Positions 19,476 to 52,148 of a stretch of 64,000 nucleotides of DNA are shown here, in pieces. The notes beneath the pieces were generated by a model that saw nothing but the letters and a program-made list of their open reading frames with translations, searched no databases and was not told where the DNA came from. This DNA is from Escherichia coli phage Shin27: sequence record LC788709.1, one strand, 5' to 3'. The translations under genes were made by a program, and so were the position numbers. The stretch's first letter is position 1; every line of letters begins with the position of its first letter.

Positions 19476-20108
19476 TTATTCTTTAACGTAGCCTAAAGCT
19501 ATCGCAAGTTTTTCTAGTTCAGAAAGATTACGTTCTTGAGCTGGGACAGCCTTAGAACTTGTTGCAGTAAAAGATTTGCGCCATTCAGTGTAATCGTGGC
19601 CATTCATACTCTTAGCGAGGTTGAACGTTGAGTCCTGATTACAAGGTACAGAAACTACCGAAACTTCGTATAGTTCTAAATCTTTAATAATAAATATGTC
19701 AGTAGCTTCATCCCATTCTGCGTCTAGGCAGCGGAATCCGATACTGAAGGTTTTCAGTACACCGTTTTTAATTAGTGAGAAGATAGCTGGATCAGAACTT
19801 TCATAAATCTCGCATTCAATTTCGAGACCCATTTCAGTAGGGTTAAGATCAATACACTTGCCGATTGGACGACGATGGTCGTGGCCGAAAAGAATAATCG
19901 GGTTTTTCATGTAGTTAGCAAGTGCATTAGACGTTTTCCATGCCGAAGCAGGAATTACGTCACCAGCGCGATCTTTACTAATTGTATTAGCGAATCCACG
20001 GATTTTTACAACACCCTCTTTGGATTCGCTATCAATAGACTTAATGTAAGCGTCTAAATGAACCGGTGCTGATTTTAACTTGTTATAGTCAATAGCAGCA
20101 TTTGTCAT
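19476..20108 (-). CDS. prohead protease (T5 pb11-like)
   Basis: 210-aa ORF between decoration and capsid genes; conserved His/Ser-containing protease-like core. Confidence 0.65.
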   Translation of the reverse strand: MTNAAIDYNKLKSAPVHLDAYIKSIDSESKEGVVKIRGFANTISKDRAGDVIPASAWKTSNALANYMKNPIILFGHDHRRPIGKCIDLNPTEMGLEIECEIYESSDPAIFSLIKNGVLKTFSIGFRCLDAEWDEATDIFIIKDLELYEVSVVSVPCNQDSTFNLAKSMNGHDYTEWRKSFTATSSKAVPAQERNLSELEKLAIALGYVKE

Positions 20109-48335: not shown

Positions 48336-48752
48336 TTAGTGTGCTTGATGTGGGAATCTCTTCCTAACTAAGTACATAGTTATTGGATATATTGAATACA
48401 TAAGTATAGGGGAGAAAAGGGTGAAATAAGCCGTGACTCCCCCAGCTAACATTAGTGGTATCAATGCTAGAGTAAGGGCCATAAGAATCATACCGAATGA
48501 GACAGCCAGGGCTACTGTGATGCAGTTCTCTAACTCCATCCAAAGCCAACAATATTTCGTATTCCTCTGGCAGTTGCATTTGCAAACGCCGAATGTGCCC
48601 ATAATTATATACTCTAGCCCATGAACGACTTTCTTTAATGTATCATTTTGGGTAACTAGTGCGACAACAGTGAGAATTATCATTAAGATGAAAATTACTA
48701 GGCTTATTTTCCATATTCCTAGTAATATCATGGTGAATAGTTCTGCAAACAT
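48336..48752 (-). CDS. multi-pass membrane protein (lysis-associated candidate)
   Basis: 138-aa ORF with 3-4 TM helices and a Cys cluster; adjacent to endolysin. Confidence 0.4.
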   Translation of the reverse strand: MFAELFTMILLGIWKISLVIFILMIILTVVALVTQNDTLKKVVHGLEYIIMGTFGVCKCNCQRNTKYCWLWMELENCITVALAVSFGMILMALTLALIPLMLAGGVTAYFTLFSPILMYSIYPITMYLVRKRFPHQAH

Positions 48753-48827
48753 GGCTTTCTCCTATCATTAAGTTTTTAAAGCCCCCTTTGCTTTAAAAGG
48801 CGGGAATTACCCCGCCTTGATTTATTA

Positions 48828-49241
48828 TCAGACTAATTCTACGTGACCACCGTCGTAAGTACCACGATCGATCTCATCATGATAATCACCAGAACTATTC
48901 CAGTCGGCACCAAAACGAAGTTTGACACCAAGTTCCTTACCGGCTTGTTCAAAAGCCTTCTTAACAGCCCAAAATGCTTCCAGATCTTTCCAATCAATCT
49001 TTCCATTAATATATGGTGCAAAATCGATAGCGTCTCCAGTTACATGCTTACTCTTGCTAGGGTCTTTCAAAAATGAAGTACCATTAGCAATGTTTTGGGC
49101 ACTTTGTGCTACTGTACGAATACCCTGTACGATTGTGAAATCATATGGAGATAATTCTAAAGCCCTACGAGCTACCTTTTGTAGCTCGGGCTTAACAGTT
49201 GCTAATTGTTTTTCGCTATTTTTACCAAATTTAAAACTCAT
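48828..49241 (-). CDS. lys: endolysin, M15-type peptidoglycan peptidase (T5 Lys-like)
   Basis: 137-aa ORF with VanY/M15-like HVTGDAIDF and DGGHVE motifs; size equals T5 endolysin as recalled. Confidence 0.7.
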   Translation of the reverse strand: MSFKFGKNSEKQLATVKPELQKVARRALELSPYDFTIVQGIRTVAQSAQNIANGTSFLKDPSKSKHVTGDAIDFAPYINGKIDWKDLEAFWAVKKAFEQAGKELGVKLRFGADWNSSGDYHDEIDRGTYDGGHVELV

Positions 49242-49894
49242 ATAGATCTACCTAATGATCTCCGTTGTGGGGAACAGAGCTTTGCTAAGTACTCATTAAA
49301 TTGTTCCGAATCAGCTGTATCTACGGGTTTATCCTTCCATGCAATACCTATGTATCCAGCATAGATATTATTTAGGTTGAAATATGGACAAGTGTAGACG
49401 TAATTAAAAGTAATGTTCTTAAATGCTGGTATATTTGACCCAGTATATTTATTTACTTTTACACTTAAATCCGCAGCGTAGTTAAAGCCTTCCAGGTGAC
49501 GTCTATAAAGTTCAGACGTCTTATTTACTGCTTTATCGGCCAAGTCAGCCCTATCCAATTGCGCATTGCTTTCCCATGCAATAATGTTTGAATAATCATT
49601 TATAGCATCTGGTTTATACTTTACTACAAAAACGGCATCCGCACCAGTCTGGGAGAAAAGAACCATACTCTTTTCTCGTGCTACATTAGGAAAGTTATCT
49701 ATCCTTTGGGTTTGAACATCCTGTAAAACCGAAGACGTGGAGAAAGTCTTTAAAAATGACATCACCTCGCTAGTGTTACTTACAAACAAGAAAATAATGA
49801 CAGCAACTAAGATAGTTAGCAGACGTTTTAGTAGTGAAGCTGGATCTTTCGCTTCTTGTAGCAGTATCGTTAATAGTTGTATAAACTTTTCCAC
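49238..49894 (-). CDS. membrane protein upstream of endolysin (holin candidate)
   Basis: 218-aa ORF with single N-terminal TM; translationally coupled to endolysin. Confidence 0.4.
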   Translation of the reverse strand: MEKFIQLLTILLQEAKDPASLLKRLLTILVAVIIFLFVSNTSEVMSFLKTFSTSSVLQDVQTQRIDNFPNVAREKSMVLFSQTGADAVFVVKYKPDAINDYSNIIAWESNAQLDRADLADKAVNKTSELYRRHLEGFNYAADLSVKVNKYTGSNIPAFKNITFNYVYTCPYFNLNNIYAGYIGIAWKDKPVDTADSEQFNEYLAKLCSPQRRSLGRSI

Positions 49895-49917
49895 TTGTAA
49901 CCTCCTCTAACCACTAC

Positions 49918-49946
49918 CATTATACTAATTCTAGAGTAAAATTACA
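49918..49946 (-). promoter_or_regulatory. sigma70-type promoter (TTGTAA-N17-TATAAT) upstream of lysis cassette
   Basis: upstream of 49238..49894. Confidence 0.45.
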
Positions 49947-50007
49947 ATGTGTTTTTTAAGATCACTTCTGGAGCACAATTTTTTGTCGTTGTCAAGAAGA
50001 ATTTTAG

Positions 50008-50041
50008 GCAAAAGAAAAGCCAGAGTCGTTAAACTCTGGCT
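50008..50041 (-). terminator. rho-independent terminator after ClpP-like gene
   Basis: hairpin GCCAGAG-TCGTTAAAC-TCTGGC followed by U-run on minus strand. Confidence 0.55.
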
Positions 50042-50050
50042 TAAAACTAC

Positions 50051-50650
50051 TTACACTTCTCCATGTTCTTCTGGATGCGGGGCTTGAGCTTTACTACACT
50101 GCTCTTTACGATAATTCGCCAAAATTTCAATACGCTTATTGATTTCTTTGCTGTTGAGATAGATATTCTTATTCTCTTTTACCATATCCTCGATTTCGTC
50201 GACAGAGAAGAACGGAAAGTAAATATCTAGCATCATATCTTCTACAAACTGGTTGTAGGATTCATAGGCTTTCTTGATTTCTTGACCTTTCTCGCAGAAT
50301 CCGCCAGAGAACGTATGTCCCATAAGCGTAGCATGTGGATGTACAACCCAACCGTGGCAAGACAGGAAGATTGTGCAGTAAGCAGAAGCACTAGGACCGA
50401 GCAGGTGTCCAATAACAGTTCCACGACAGTTAGCGATTAGGTTAGATAGTTGTGCAGCAGTATCAACGTAACCACCCGGCCCATTAATCATCAGATTAAT
50501 TTCATCATCTTCACCAGCCTGCATCAGTATCATGGATAGGTCACGATACTCATCCGGTGAGCCTAATTCTTCATCAAAGAAAAAGGTATATTCGTTAGAT
50601 TGGCGAACAGTGTGAAACAGGTTAGTCTTTTCTTCTTTCTTATTAGTCAT
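50051..50650 (-). CDS. ClpP-like serine protease
   Basis: 199-aa ORF; INGPGG, GPSASAY, LMGHTFSGG segments resemble the ClpP core. Confidence 0.55.
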   Translation of the reverse strand: MTNKKEEKTNLFHTVRQSNEYTFFFDEELGSPDEYRDLSMILMQAGEDDEINLMINGPGGYVDTAAQLSNLIANCRGTVIGHLLGPSASAYCTIFLSCHGWVVHPHATLMGHTFSGGFCEKGQEIKKAYESYNQFVEDMMLDIYFPFFSVDEIEDMVKENKNIYLNSKEINKRIEILANYRKEQCSKAQAPHPEEHGEV

Positions 50651-50662
50651 AGTGATCCTTAA

Positions 50663-51415
50663 TTATCCAACTAGTGGTTCTAGTTCTAAGTCACAGAAGT
50701 GGTACACATCGGTACGAAGTGCATCAAGTCCGTTGAAGGTATTCTCAAATTTATGAGAAATGTATTTTTCAGGAATACCGCTTTCAGACGGATGATCTGT
50801 CTCGATGCGATACTTATTAGTAATACCAGATTCAACCTTAATAAGCATGGAATCCATATCTAGAGTATTGGTTTCCATGATTAGCTCTCCCTCATTGGGG
50901 AAACGCACATCGGTAACGATTGCGACGTCTGGGTCGTCTTTATCGATGGATTGCTCCAGAATTATGAGCCAAATGCGTTCATGCACCAGCTGCCTTCCTA
51001 ACTCAGTACCTACAAGCTGTAGCATTTTTCTTGGGGAGATAAATACGCTATACAGCGCATCATCAGCTTGCCCAATTAACTGCTGAGGATCAAGGTATTT
51101 TCCTTCAAAAATCGGCCAAACGTACGAGAAGTCCTCAAACTTATCGATACCATACTTAAACCATACGTCTCTAGCTCGCTCCAATTGAGATTGTGTGACC
51201 GTAAACCATTGGTCAATCTCTTTTCCCCTGCGCTCTCCCAGAAACTCTGGAGTTACCCCGAGGATTACGGATGCAAGTTCGTAAACGGGTTTAGCAAAAC
51301 TGTAACGACGGGATAAACACGTTGGGAACGTGTCATTACACCAGTCAATCATTAATTCTGCAACGGTATCTTTTCCCGCACCAGCCTCACCATGTAAACC
51401 GACTAATACTGACAT
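50663..51415 (-). CDS. deoxynucleoside monophosphate kinase-like P-loop protein
   Basis: 250-aa ORF with N-terminal GEAGAGKDT P-loop as in phage dNMP kinases. Confidence 0.5.
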   Translation of the reverse strand: MSVLVGLHGEAGAGKDTVAELMIDWCNDTFPTCLSRRYSFAKPVYELASVILGVTPEFLGERRGKEIDQWFTVTQSQLERARDVWFKYGIDKFEDFSYVWPIFEGKYLDPQQLIGQADDALYSVFISPRKMLQLVGTELGRQLVHERIWLIILEQSIDKDDPDVAIVTDVRFPNEGELIMETNTLDMDSMLIKVESGITNKYRIETDHPSESGIPEKYISHKFENTFNGLDALRTDVYHFCDLELEPLVG

Positions 51416-51768
51416 TAATCTTTCCTATTTGTAATGGGTGGATAGTAAACTAAGCAACGTTTTTCTTGTAAATCTTGACGATAGAAGCAAACCATACCAG
51501 TCAGTCGTGAAATGTAAGAGTAAACTGCTTCCTCGCATTTTGCTTTTGCATTCCAATCTTTGTAAGGTACAACAACTACTACGCCATCTTCGCCATTCGT
51601 AGCTAATTTCTTTTCGAATTTGAAATCAAAGCTACACGGCTGAAGTCCTTTAGGCCAGTCAACATGGGCTTGCTTTAACTCATGTGAAGGCTCTGGTTTT
51701 ATTTCTTCTGCACAGCCTGTGATTGTGATTGCGGCTGCGAGCAGTACTCCAAGTTTCCAGTTAAGCAT
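51415..51768 (-). CDS. lipoprotein
   Basis: 117-aa ORF with signal peptide and lipobox ITGC. Confidence 0.45.
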   Translation of the reverse strand: MLNWKLGVLLAAAITITGCAEEIKPEPSHELKQAHVDWPKGLQPCSFDFKFEKKLATNGEDGVVVVVPYKDWNAKAKCEEAVYSYISRLTGMVCFYRQDLQEKRCLVYYPPITNRKD

Positions 51769-52148
51769 GCTAATCTTTCCTCGAACTCCTTACTCTGCTT
51801 TTTAGCAATTAATGTAACCAATCCAGGCTTTGCAGCTATAATGTCTTGACGACTAAGTGCTTTATCAAGCTGACTAATTTTCTTGTCTAGATCTGCTTGG
51901 GAAACATTATTCATTGTGAAATACTGATTCATACGAGTTTCACGAAGTTCACTTTCAGCTTTCACATTATTAAGGGAAGTCTCTAGGGACGTAATCTTTT
52001 TAGTAGCTACTGCAAGATCACCTGCTAGAGTCTCAACCTTATTTACTAAGTGATAAGCACCGAATCCGATACCTATCGCAAGACCAGCTCCCAGGATATA
52101 CCACTTACCTTGCCATATTCCTGAAAGAAGTTTTTGTATCAAATCCAT
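51699..52148 (-). CDS. membrane-anchored coiled-coil protein
   Basis: 149-aa ORF; N-terminal TM; overlaps neighbours. Confidence 0.4.
   Translation of the reverse strand: MDLIQKLLSGIWQGKWYILGAGLAIGIGFGAYHLVNKVETLAGDLAVATKKITSLETSLNNVKAESELRETRMNQYFTMNNVSQADLDKKISQLDKALSRQDIIAAKPGLVTLIAKKQSKEFEERLACLTGNLEYCSQPQSQSQAVQKK

What the first reader, a model, noticed from the sequence alone, without database searches (positions are those of the whole stretch)
50051..50650. ClpP-like protease in the early region
The ORF has INGPGG and Ser/His-containing segments resembling the ClpP catalytic core. There is no scaffold or capsid context; the structural prohead protease is a separate gene at 19476. An early ClpP-like protease could remodel host proteolysis or degrade defence proteins.
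Basis: partly seen in the sequence, partly recalled or inferred. Interest (0 to 1): 0.45.

Follow-up and report, generated by a model that had tools for sequence, protein, structure and literature searches.

The report
Known T5 ClpP-like protease, Asn-variant triad
This is a real gene for a ClpP-fold serine protease that all T5-like phages carry among their early genes; it is already annotated in hundreds of genomes, its function is still unknown, and its catalytic Asp is replaced by Asn.

Summary

What is added here:
- Ser89 and His112 are invariant in 169 relatives. The third triad residue is Asn162 in the T5 clade, against Asp or Glu elsewhere. This change co-occurs perfectly with Gly120 to Glu.
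- The positions that align to ClpP's ClpX/ClpA docking pocket are polar and variable. The N-terminus has no counterpart to ClpP's axial loop and helix A. 'ATP-dependent' is therefore an unsupported transferred label.
- The family scores closer to ClpP-related phage head-maturation proteases than to cellular ClpP, yet in six lineages it lies in DNA/nucleotide-metabolism modules.
- dN/dS is about 0.07.

The targets are unknown, and a role against host defences is untested. It is an ordinary, known gene with an open function.

The parts
50051..50650 (-). CDS of 199 aa: phage ClpP-like serine protease, the orthologue of T5.042 and BF23 ORF45
   Evidence: ORF list. Pfam PF00574 above cut-off. PHROG 1827 E=2e-88. 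100% identical proteins in Salmonella phages. T5.042 synteny. ClpP fold.
50471..50488 (-). Codons for I55-N-G-P-G-G60, the oxyanion-hole loop motif (ClpP 'INSPGG')
   Evidence: Coordinates. G59 and G60 are invariant in 169/169 relatives, and the motif aligns to E. coli ClpP N-S-P-G-G.
50384..50386 (-). Codon TCT for Ser89, the predicted nucleophile (aligns to E. coli ClpP Ser97)
   Evidence: Ser in 169/169 family members.
50315..50317 (-). Codon CAT for His112, the predicted general base (aligns to E. coli ClpP His122)
   Evidence: His in 168/169, and the one exception is a truncated fragment.
50165..50167 (-). Codon AAT for Asn162, at the position of ClpP catalytic Asp171. Asn is found only in the T5-like clade.
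   Evidence: Codon survey of T5-like orthologues: AAT 26, AAC 1, GAT/GAC 2.
50291..50293 (-). Codon for Glu120 in the handle turn (GG-F-C-E-K-G). This position is Gly in 154/161 other family members, and the change co-occurs perfectly with Asn162.
   Evidence: Coordinates were computed with the same rule that verified.
50656..50660 (-). Shine-Dalgarno-like AAGGA, 5 nt upstream of the ATG. The dNMP kinase stop codon lies 12 nt upstream of the ATG.
   Evidence: Sequence; ORF coordinates.
50017..50042 (-). Intrinsic-terminator-like hairpin (11-bp stem plus T-run) immediately after the stop codon. It ends the spanin-dnk-clp transcription unit.
   Evidence: T5 carries an annotated terminator at the syntenic place, followed by a promoter for the holin.
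50663..51415 (-). Upstream, apparently co-transcribed gene: deoxynucleoside monophosphate kinase (T5 dnk orthologue). It marks the early nucleotide-metabolism context.
   Evidence: Pfam DNMK. Annotation in relatives. 81.7% amino-acid identity to T5 dnk.

Best explanation
The gene encodes a non-structural, phage-specific member of the ClpP (S14) clan. It is a ~22-kDa ClpP-fold serine peptidase made with the early nucleotide-metabolism genes, in the same apparent transcription unit as dNMP kinase.

Shown:
- ClpP fold.
- Conserved oxyanion loop, nucleophile Ser89, His112 and substrate-strand Gly-Gly.
- Strong purifying selection.
- Presence in more than 400 T5-like phage records.
- Location in DNA/nucleotide-metabolism modules in distant phage lineages.

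Inferred:
- It assembles into ClpP-like rings, because the handle helix and strand are retained.
- It cleaves peptides or unfolded polypeptides inside the infected cell without docking ClpX/ClpA in the canonical way. The docking-pocket positions are polar and variable, and the N-terminal region has no counterpart to ClpP's gate and helix A.
- In the T5 clade the acid of the triad is replaced (D162N) together with G120E. Catalysis is therefore probably attenuated, or made dependent on assembly or a partner, rather than abolished.

Substrates and physiological role are unknown.
For: Family and fold:
- Pfam PF00574 scores 31.1 bits, above the 20.2 cut-off.
- A family profile hits only ClpPs in the PDB.
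- The model has pLDDT 94.1.

Catalytic residues:
- Among 169 relatives, G59 and G60 are 169/169, S89 is 169/169, H112 is 168/169, and position 162 is D 137, E 17, N 8.
- Asn162 and Glu120 are fixed together across the T5-like clade down to 59% identity.

Selection and spread:
- dN/dS is 0.07 at dS ~1 against T5, similar to holin and endolysin.
- About 440 phage records hold an orthologue with at least 80% identity.
- 532 clusters (50% identity) match at E<1e-30.

Context:
- T5-like phages: dnk, then clp, then a terminator.
- Other lineages: PhoH, RNR, UvsY, UvsW, gp32, DHFR and Dam as neighbours.

No canonical docking:
- E. coli ClpP Y60, Y62, F82, I90, M92, F112, L114 and L189 align to N52, M54, N74, H82, L84, V102, H104 and A178. 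These columns are polar or variable across the family.
- Residues 1-19 have no predicted secondary structure.
- No Clp/AAA+ unfoldase is annotated in T5 between 15 and 80 kb.
Against: - No biochemical data exist. The only paper found that mentions the protein says its function is 'currently unknown' (PMC10644984).
- A Ser-His-Asn triad is inactive on its own in Listeria ClpP1 (PMC9257651), so the T5-clade protein could be inactive or need a partner.
- Oligomeric state could not be modelled here.
- The docking-pocket argument rests on a ~17%-identity alignment and on pocket residues recalled from the ClpP literature.
- Detection in BF23 virion preparations hints at a different location.
- Early timing is inferred from synteny with T5 early genes, not measured.
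Confidence: 0.55

Rival explanations
1. Virion-associated or morphogenetic protease. On this reading it is a diverged ClpP-type head-maturation protease that is packaged into capsids. It would process a virion component, or be ejected with the DNA to act at the start of infection.
For: - All 60 family members tested score better against the NCBIfam 'head maturation protease, ClpP-related' model (best 2.8e-24; this protein 41.2 bits) than against ClpP models (best 1.5e-12; this protein about 20 bits).
- PHROG head-maturation families also match (phrog_1684, E=1e-20).
- The BF23 orthologue ORF45 was identified in virion MS with 3 peptides (PMC10644984).
Against: - The score is far below the family cut-off (41 against 120 bits).
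- The gene is never in a head module in the six lineages inspected.
- The phage has its own S78 prohead protease next to the capsid gene.
- The BF23 signal is about 0.07% of the capsid protein's intensity, in PEG-precipitated rather than gradient-purified virions. The early enzyme DHFR was found in the same preparation, which suggests carry-over.
- A large ClpP-like barrel would co-precipitate easily (inference).
Confidence: 0.12
2. Modifier of the host Clp machinery. Like Listeria ClpP1 (Ser-His-Asn, inactive alone, unable to bind AAA+ partners), a heptamer of the phage protein would stack on a host ClpP heptamer. The mixed barrel would have changed activity or specificity, redirecting ClpXP/ClpAP during infection.
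For: - The same Asp-to-Asn triad variant and the same lack of unfoldase-docking features are described for LmClpP1, which becomes active only in a ClpP1/ClpP2 heterocomplex (PMC9257651).
- LmClpP1 (4jcq, 4ryf) is among the top structural matches.
- The handle region is retained.
- The coupled G120E/D162N swap lies in the handle and at its base. By analogy with ClpP structures, not measured here, these elements sit near the ring-ring interface.
Against: - Only 15-20% identity to E. coli ClpP and other bacterial ClpPs, far lower than between natural ClpP1/ClpP2 pairs (my recollection).
- Most of the family keeps Asp and infects unrelated hosts, so the ancestral function cannot depend on this.
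- No multimer model or interaction data are available.
Confidence: 0.1
3. Catalytically dead pseudo-protease in the T5 clade. It would keep the ClpP fold as a binding, chaperone-like or decoy module, for example sequestering host adaptors or substrates.
For: The canonical acid of the triad is lost (Asn162), and a conserved handle Gly is replaced by Glu120. LmClpP1 with the same triad is inactive alone.
Against: - Ser89, His112 and the Gly-Gly oxyanion loop stay invariant throughout the Asn clade despite dS ~1. That is not expected if catalysis had been given up.
- The swap looks compensatory (acid lost at 162, acid gained at 120) rather than degenerative.
Confidence: 0.1
4. Lysis-timing factor. 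The protease would process or degrade a lysis protein (T-type holin, spanin, or an antiholin-like membrane protein), because it is embedded in the lysis gene cluster.
For: - In Demerecviridae the gene order is spanins, dnk, clp, holin, endolysin.
- In Vibrio T5-like phages the clp gene overlaps the start of the endolysin gene.
Against: - A terminator and a separate promoter lie between clp and the holin.
- Outside Demerecviridae the family is not next to lysis genes.
- The protein has no signal peptide or TM segment visible in the sequence. No predictor was run.
Confidence: 0.05

Closest known systems
T5.042 ('ATP-dependent protease') of phage T5, ORF45 'Clp protease' of BF23, and PHROG 1827
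   Same: Orthologue. It shares 88% amino-acid identity with T5.042 and the same gene order (spanins, dnk, clp, terminator, promoter, holin, endolysin). Identical 199-aa proteins exist in Salmonella phages. The PHROG match is full-length.
   Different: Nothing substantive. The function of these orthologues is itself unknown (PMC10644984), and the name 'ATP-dependent' comes from similarity only.
Bacterial ClpP (E. coli ClpP, peptidase family S14; PDB 1tyf, 3mt6)
   Different: - Only 15-20% identity to the bacterial ClpP structures matched.
- NCBIfam ClpP equivalog score is 15 bits against a cut-off of 308.6.
- Asp171 aligns to Asn162.
- The residues that form ClpP's IGF/LGF docking pocket are not conserved.
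- The N-terminal region has no counterpart to ClpP's axial hairpin and helix A.
- A long C-terminal helix (167-189) stands where ClpP ends in 'GLVDSILTHRN'.
- Family-specific invariants are D49, Q67, K121, Y144, F147, E152 and R173.
Listeria monocytogenes ClpP1 (PDB 4jcq; heterocomplex 4ryf)
   Same: Ser-His-Asn triad and no AAA+ docking sites. It is among the best structural matches.
   Different: LmClpP1 is a cellular paralogue that works with a cognate ClpP2. No cognate partner is known for the phage protein, sequence identity is about 20-22%, and most of the phage family keeps Asp.
ClpP-related phage head-maturation proteases (NCBIfam NF045542; PHROG 1684, 94)
   Same: These are the best-scoring curated models for every family member tested. 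They are phage-borne and, as far as I recall, do not depend on an ATPase.
   Different: Scores are far below the family cut-off. The gene is never in a head module. This phage uses an S78 prohead protease.

Membership tests
Peptidase clan/family S14, Pfam PF00574 CLP_protease | Profile score above the curated gathering threshold | tested here: met
   31.1 bits against 20.2, E=2.6e-7.
Peptidase clan/family S14, Pfam PF00574 CLP_protease | ClpP alpha/beta fold with handle | tested here: met
Peptidase clan/family S14, Pfam PF00574 CLP_protease | Nucleophile Ser and general-base His at the canonical positions, plus the Gly-Gly oxyanion loop | tested here: met
   S89 aligns to Ser97, H112 to His122, and G59-G60 to the ClpP loop. 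All are invariant in the family.
Peptidase clan/family S14, Pfam PF00574 CLP_protease | Third triad residue Asp (E. coli Asp171) | tested here: not met
   Asn162 (AAT) in this protein and in the whole T5-like clade. Asp or Glu in 154/169 relatives.
Canonical ATP-dependent ClpP subunit (TIGR00493 / ClpXP, ClpAP core) | Equivalog-level sequence score | tested here: not met
   TIGR00493 15.2 bits against 308.6; PRK00277 20 bits against 249.
Canonical ATP-dependent ClpP subunit (TIGR00493 / ClpXP, ClpAP core) | Hydrophobic pocket that binds the IGF/LGF loops of ClpX/ClpA | tested here: not met
   The aligned residues are N52, M54, N74, H82, L84, V102, H104 and A178, and the columns are polar or variable across the family. 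Caveats: the alignment is at low identity, and the pocket residue list is from my knowledge of the ClpP literature.
Canonical ATP-dependent ClpP subunit (TIGR00493 / ClpXP, ClpAP core) | Conserved N-terminal axial hairpin and helix A that gate the pore | tested here: not met
   Residues 1-19 have no predicted secondary structure. N-terminal length varies from 0 to 68 residues in the family, and the sequence is not conserved. E. coli residues 17-28 have no aligned counterpart.
Canonical ATP-dependent ClpP subunit (TIGR00493 / ClpXP, ClpAP core) | Double heptameric ring; ATP-dependent degradation with an AAA+ partner | not testable with these tools
   No multimer prediction or biochemistry is available. 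No Clp/AAA+ unfoldase is annotated in T5 between 15 and 80 kb.
ClpP-related head-maturation protease (NCBIfam NF045542) | Score above the curated cut-off | tested here: not met
   41.2 bits against 120. It is nevertheless the best-scoring curated family for all 60 relatives tested.
ClpP-related head-maturation protease (NCBIfam NF045542) | Gene in the head module beside portal, scaffold and capsid genes | tested here: not met
   It lies between dNMP kinase and holin, about 30 kb from the portal, S78 protease and capsid genes. Contexts are non-structural in other lineages too.
ClpP-related head-maturation protease (NCBIfam NF045542) | Protein present in proheads or virions | tested here: inconclusive
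   The only evidence is literature: BF23 ORF45 with 3 peptides at low intensity in PEG-precipitated virions, alongside DHFR (PMC10644984).
PHROG 1827 (phage 'ATP-dependent protease', non-structural) | Full-length profile match | tested here: met
   E=2.1e-88, residues 1-198 on profile positions 5-201 of 202.

The most novel reading that the evidence does not exclude
In T5-like phages the ClpP-like protease may have moved its catalytic acid. The coupled substitutions D162N and G120E put a new carboxylate in the handle turn. By analogy with ClpP structures, this turn lies near the ring-ring interface (not measured here). The active site would then be completed only in trans, when two rings stack, either phage-phage or phage ring on host ClpP ring. 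That would give an assembly-gated, unfoldase-independent protease switched on during early infection to degrade particular host proteins, possibly defence or stress proteins.
Probability: 0.1. Interest if true: 0.65.

Novelty: already known. Interest (0 to 1): 0.3.

Why it matters
The gene itself is not a discovery. It is T5.042, present and annotated in hundreds of T5-like genomes. What remains open is why a large, diverse set of virulent phages (T5-like, Pakpunavirus, Barbavirus, Certrevirus, T4-like vibriophages) keeps a stand-alone ClpP-fold protease among replication and nucleotide-metabolism genes. The family comprises 532 clusters at 50% identity with E<1e-30, and in the T5-like clade the gene is under strong purifying selection. 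If the enzyme is active, it would be a widespread phage-encoded intracellular protease with unknown targets. That bears on host takeover, amino-acid recycling or counter-defence. The analysis also corrects the transferred label 'ATP-dependent', and it flags a clade-specific D162N/G120E swap that gives direct mutagenesis targets.

Tried and rejected
None found a functional study. The only relevant items were the BF23 virion MS remark and the Listeria ClpP1 precedent. The T5 virion proteomics paper (PMC3911642) is not held.\n- C-terminal extension: I tested whether the 320-aa Vibrio homologue carries a fused holin or TM domain. It does not. The extension is acidic and has no hydrophobic stretch.\n- Conserved partner gene: a neighbour-clustering analysis over 14 lineage representatives found only Demerecviridae synteny, plus PhoH adjacency in three or four other lineages. 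PhoH is not adjacent here, and none was found in the window. T5 has phoH about 30 kb away.\n- search for related loci failed with the 60-sequence alignment because it had no conserved stretch. It was rerun with A1. Of the 80 loci returned, 43 belong to a different clade closer to canonical ClpP (36% identity to E. coli ClpP) and were excluded.\n- The dnk dN/dS of 0.47 is an artefact of an ungapped alignment. The proteins are 81.7% identical with 2 gaps.\n- Distances between Ser89, His112, Asn162 and Glu120 could not be measured, because model coordinates are not exposed and multimers cannot be predicted here.

Full report
**Observation**

The ORF list shows an ATG-to-stop ORF of 199 aa at exactly 50051..50650 on the minus strand. 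The other ORFs that overlap it are 46-60 aa and were not examined further. The protein contains LMINGPGG (INGPGG is residues 55-60, window 50471-50488), a GPSAS89A motif and an LMGH112T motif. An AAGGA Shine-Dalgarno sits 5 nt before the ATG. The stop codon of the upstream dNMP kinase gene is 12 nt before the ATG. An 11-bp hairpin with a T-run follows the stop codon at 50042..50017. A promoter-like site at 49947..49919 precedes the next gene, the holin.

**Where the window comes from**

The region is 99.2-99.6% identical to T5-like phages of the genus Epseptimavirus, such as Salmonella phages 3-29, beppo and SH9 and E. coli phage Wa28. [quoted passage not shown] The T5 orthologue is T5.042, 'ATP-dependent protease, identified by sequence similarity'. 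In T5 the order is promoter, T5.047, hegF, two Rz-like spanins, dnk, T5.042, terminator, promoter, holin, endolysin. The window has the same order. The ORF at 19476..20108 is a Peptidase_S78 prohead protease (68.5 bits). It lies between the portal/decoration genes and the major capsid gene.

**Family and fold**

- Pfam CLP_protease is matched above its gathering score: 31.1 against 20.2 bits, E=2.6e-7.
- PHROG 1827 is matched over the full length at E=2e-88.
- A profile of 16 relatives hits only ClpPs in the PDB, best 6.9e-14.
- AlphaFold2 with a 60-sequence alignment gives pLDDT 94.1 and pTM 0.87.

The protein is therefore a genuine member of the ClpP clan.

The family is large. A profile search of 1.84 billion cluster representatives gives 13,324 hits at E<1e-3 and 532 at E<1e-30.

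**Catalytic residues**

I aligned the query, 168 relatives and E. coli ClpP.

| Query position | E. coli ClpP equivalent | Distribution among query + 168 relatives |
|---|---|---|
| Ser89 | Ser97 | S in 169/169 |
| His112 | His122 | H in 168/169 |
| Gly59-Gly60 | oxyanion loop | G in 169/169 |
| Asn162 | Asp171 | D 137, E 17, N 8, T 5 |

HMMER alignments to Coxiella, Thermus and other ClpPs place the same column on the catalytic Asp.

Asn occurs only in the query and its relatives down to 59% identity, which is the T5-like enterobacterial clade and includes T5 itself. In 29 T5-like orthologues the codon is AAT in 26, AAC in 1, and GAT/GAC in 2; the two Asp cases are My1-like phages. Sugarland-like phages also have Asp.

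A scan for clade-specific changes at otherwise conserved columns found only two real substitutions. These are D162N and G120E, where others have Gly in 154/161, and they co-occur perfectly. A third flagged column, 158, is a gap in most relatives. Gly120 aligns to the conserved handle Gly of ClpP (E. coli G130). The pattern reads as an acid lost at 162 and an acid gained at 120. I could not measure distances or model the oligomer, so what this means remains unexplained.

**Features of canonical ClpP that are missing**

- NCBIfam ClpP equivalog and subfamily models score 15-21 bits against cut-offs of 228-347.
- The residues that form the ClpX/ClpA IGF/LGF-loop pocket in E. coli ClpP are Y60, Y62, F82, I90, M92, F112, L114 and L189 (list from my knowledge of the ClpP literature). 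They align to N52, M54, N74, H82, L84, V102, H104 and A178. Across the family these columns are mostly polar or charged, and variable.
- Residues 1-19 have no predicted secondary structure. The N-terminal segment varies from 0 to 68 residues in the family. E. coli residues 17-28 (helix A) have no aligned counterpart.
- The C-terminus is a long helix (167-189). Some relatives extend it to more than 300 aa with acidic tails.
- No Clp or AAA+ unfoldase is annotated in T5 between 15 and 80 kb. As far as I know, the rest of the genome is pre-early or structural.

'ATP-dependent' is therefore a transferred name, not a supported property.

**Relation to phage head proteases**

For all 60 family members tested, the best curated NCBIfam model is 'head maturation protease, ClpP-related' (best 2.8e-24; 41.2 bits for this protein). 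ClpP models come second (best 1.5e-12). PHROG head-maturation families also match. None reaches the curated cut-off.

The gene is never in a head module:
- T5-like phages have dnk upstream and holin/endolysin downstream.
- Barbavirus has PhoH, clp, Dam.
- Pakpunavirus has small early ORFs and tRNAs nearby.
- Certrevirus has PhoH nearby and a DNA methyltransferase next.
- A T4-like vibriophage has DHFR, clp, DNA repair protein.
- Two metagenomic contigs have PhoH, PD-(D/E)XK nuclease, UvsY and UvsW, or PhoH and RNR.

The family looks like a phage branch of the ClpP clan, related to prohead proteases, that has settled in early DNA-metabolism modules.

The one experimental datum concerns BF23. 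[quoted passage not shown] It had 3 peptides and an intensity of 2.8e7, against 4e10 for the capsid protein. The early enzyme DHFR appeared in the same preparation (PMC10644984). This may be carry-over.

**Selection**

Against T5, dN is 0.072 and dS is 1.0, giving a ratio of 0.07. This is comparable to holin (0.054) and endolysin (0.021). About 440 phage records carry an orthologue with at least 80% identity. A few deposited genomes have truncated copies. These are either sequencing errors or a hint that the gene is dispensable in the laboratory.

**Mechanism**

Best supported (confidence about 0.55): an early, non-structural ClpP-fold serine peptidase. It probably forms ClpP-like rings and cleaves peptides or unfolded chains without canonical unfoldase docking. 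In the T5 clade the D162N/G120E swap would make catalysis weaker or dependent on assembly.

Rivals:
- A packaged or morphogenetic protease (0.12).
- A Listeria-ClpP1-like partner of host ClpP (0.10). The Listeria precedent is a Ser98-His123-Asn172 enzyme that is inactive alone, has no AAA+ binding, and is active in the ClpP1/2 complex (PMC9257651).
- A pseudo-protease (0.10).
- A lysis-timing factor (0.05).

**Novelty and verdict**

The entity is already known and annotated, and its function is uncharacterised. This analysis adds three things: the Asn/Glu swap, the missing unfoldase-docking features, and the affinity to head-maturation proteases. Interest is modest (0.3). It would rise only if the protease proves to have specific host or defence targets.

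Noticed in passing
window 50291-50293 and 50165-50167 (minus strand): Glu120 and Asn162 are the only two conserved family columns substituted specifically in the T5-like clade (G120E, D162N), and they co-occur perfectly. This may be a compensatory relocation of the catalytic acid.
   Followed up: partly
window 48336-52148 (minus strand): The lysis genes are split. A spanin-like pair (51699-52148 and the overlapping 51415-51768, orthologues of T5.045/T5.044) lies upstream of dnk and clp. The T-type holin (49238-49894, PF11031) and M15 endolysin (48828-49241) follow after a terminator and promoter. A multi-TM 138-aa protein (48336-48752) comes next.
   Followed up: partly
L004:3198-3983, L041:5313-5951, L040:4432-5250, L006:1255-2001: In four unrelated phage lineages a PhoH-like ATPase gene lies directly upstream of, or close to, the ClpP-like gene. 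T5 has phoH (T5.098) about 30 kb away, and none was found in this window.
   Followed up: partly
L044-L087 (43 IMG/VR loci): This is a separate clade of ~215-aa ClpP genes on marine and metagenomic viral contigs. It is 36% identical to E. coli ClpP, much closer to the canonical enzyme than the T5 family. It was excluded from the analysis.
   Followed up: no
L003:3899-4861: The ClpP-like gene of Vibrio T5-like phages is 320 aa, with a ~130-residue acidic C-terminal extension that has no hydrophobic stretch. Its end overlaps the start of the endolysin gene by 11 nt.
   Followed up: partly
L030:6001-6501; P0016; BFVD A0A482N5C1: A few T5-like genomes carry truncated copies of the gene (166, 136 and 157 aa). 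In L030 the reading frame breaks at the Asn162 codon region. These are either sequencing errors or evidence that the gene is dispensable.
   Followed up: no
L002:3304-3549 (T5 RefSeq T5.036): An 81-aa early-region ORF is labelled 'major head protein' in the T5 RefSeq record. This is probably a mis-annotation and is unrelated to the finding.
   Followed up: no
window 50663-51415: The dNMP kinase gene is more diverged from T5 (81.7% amino-acid identity, with two indels) than the adjacent ClpP-like gene (88%), holin or endolysin.
   Followed up: partly
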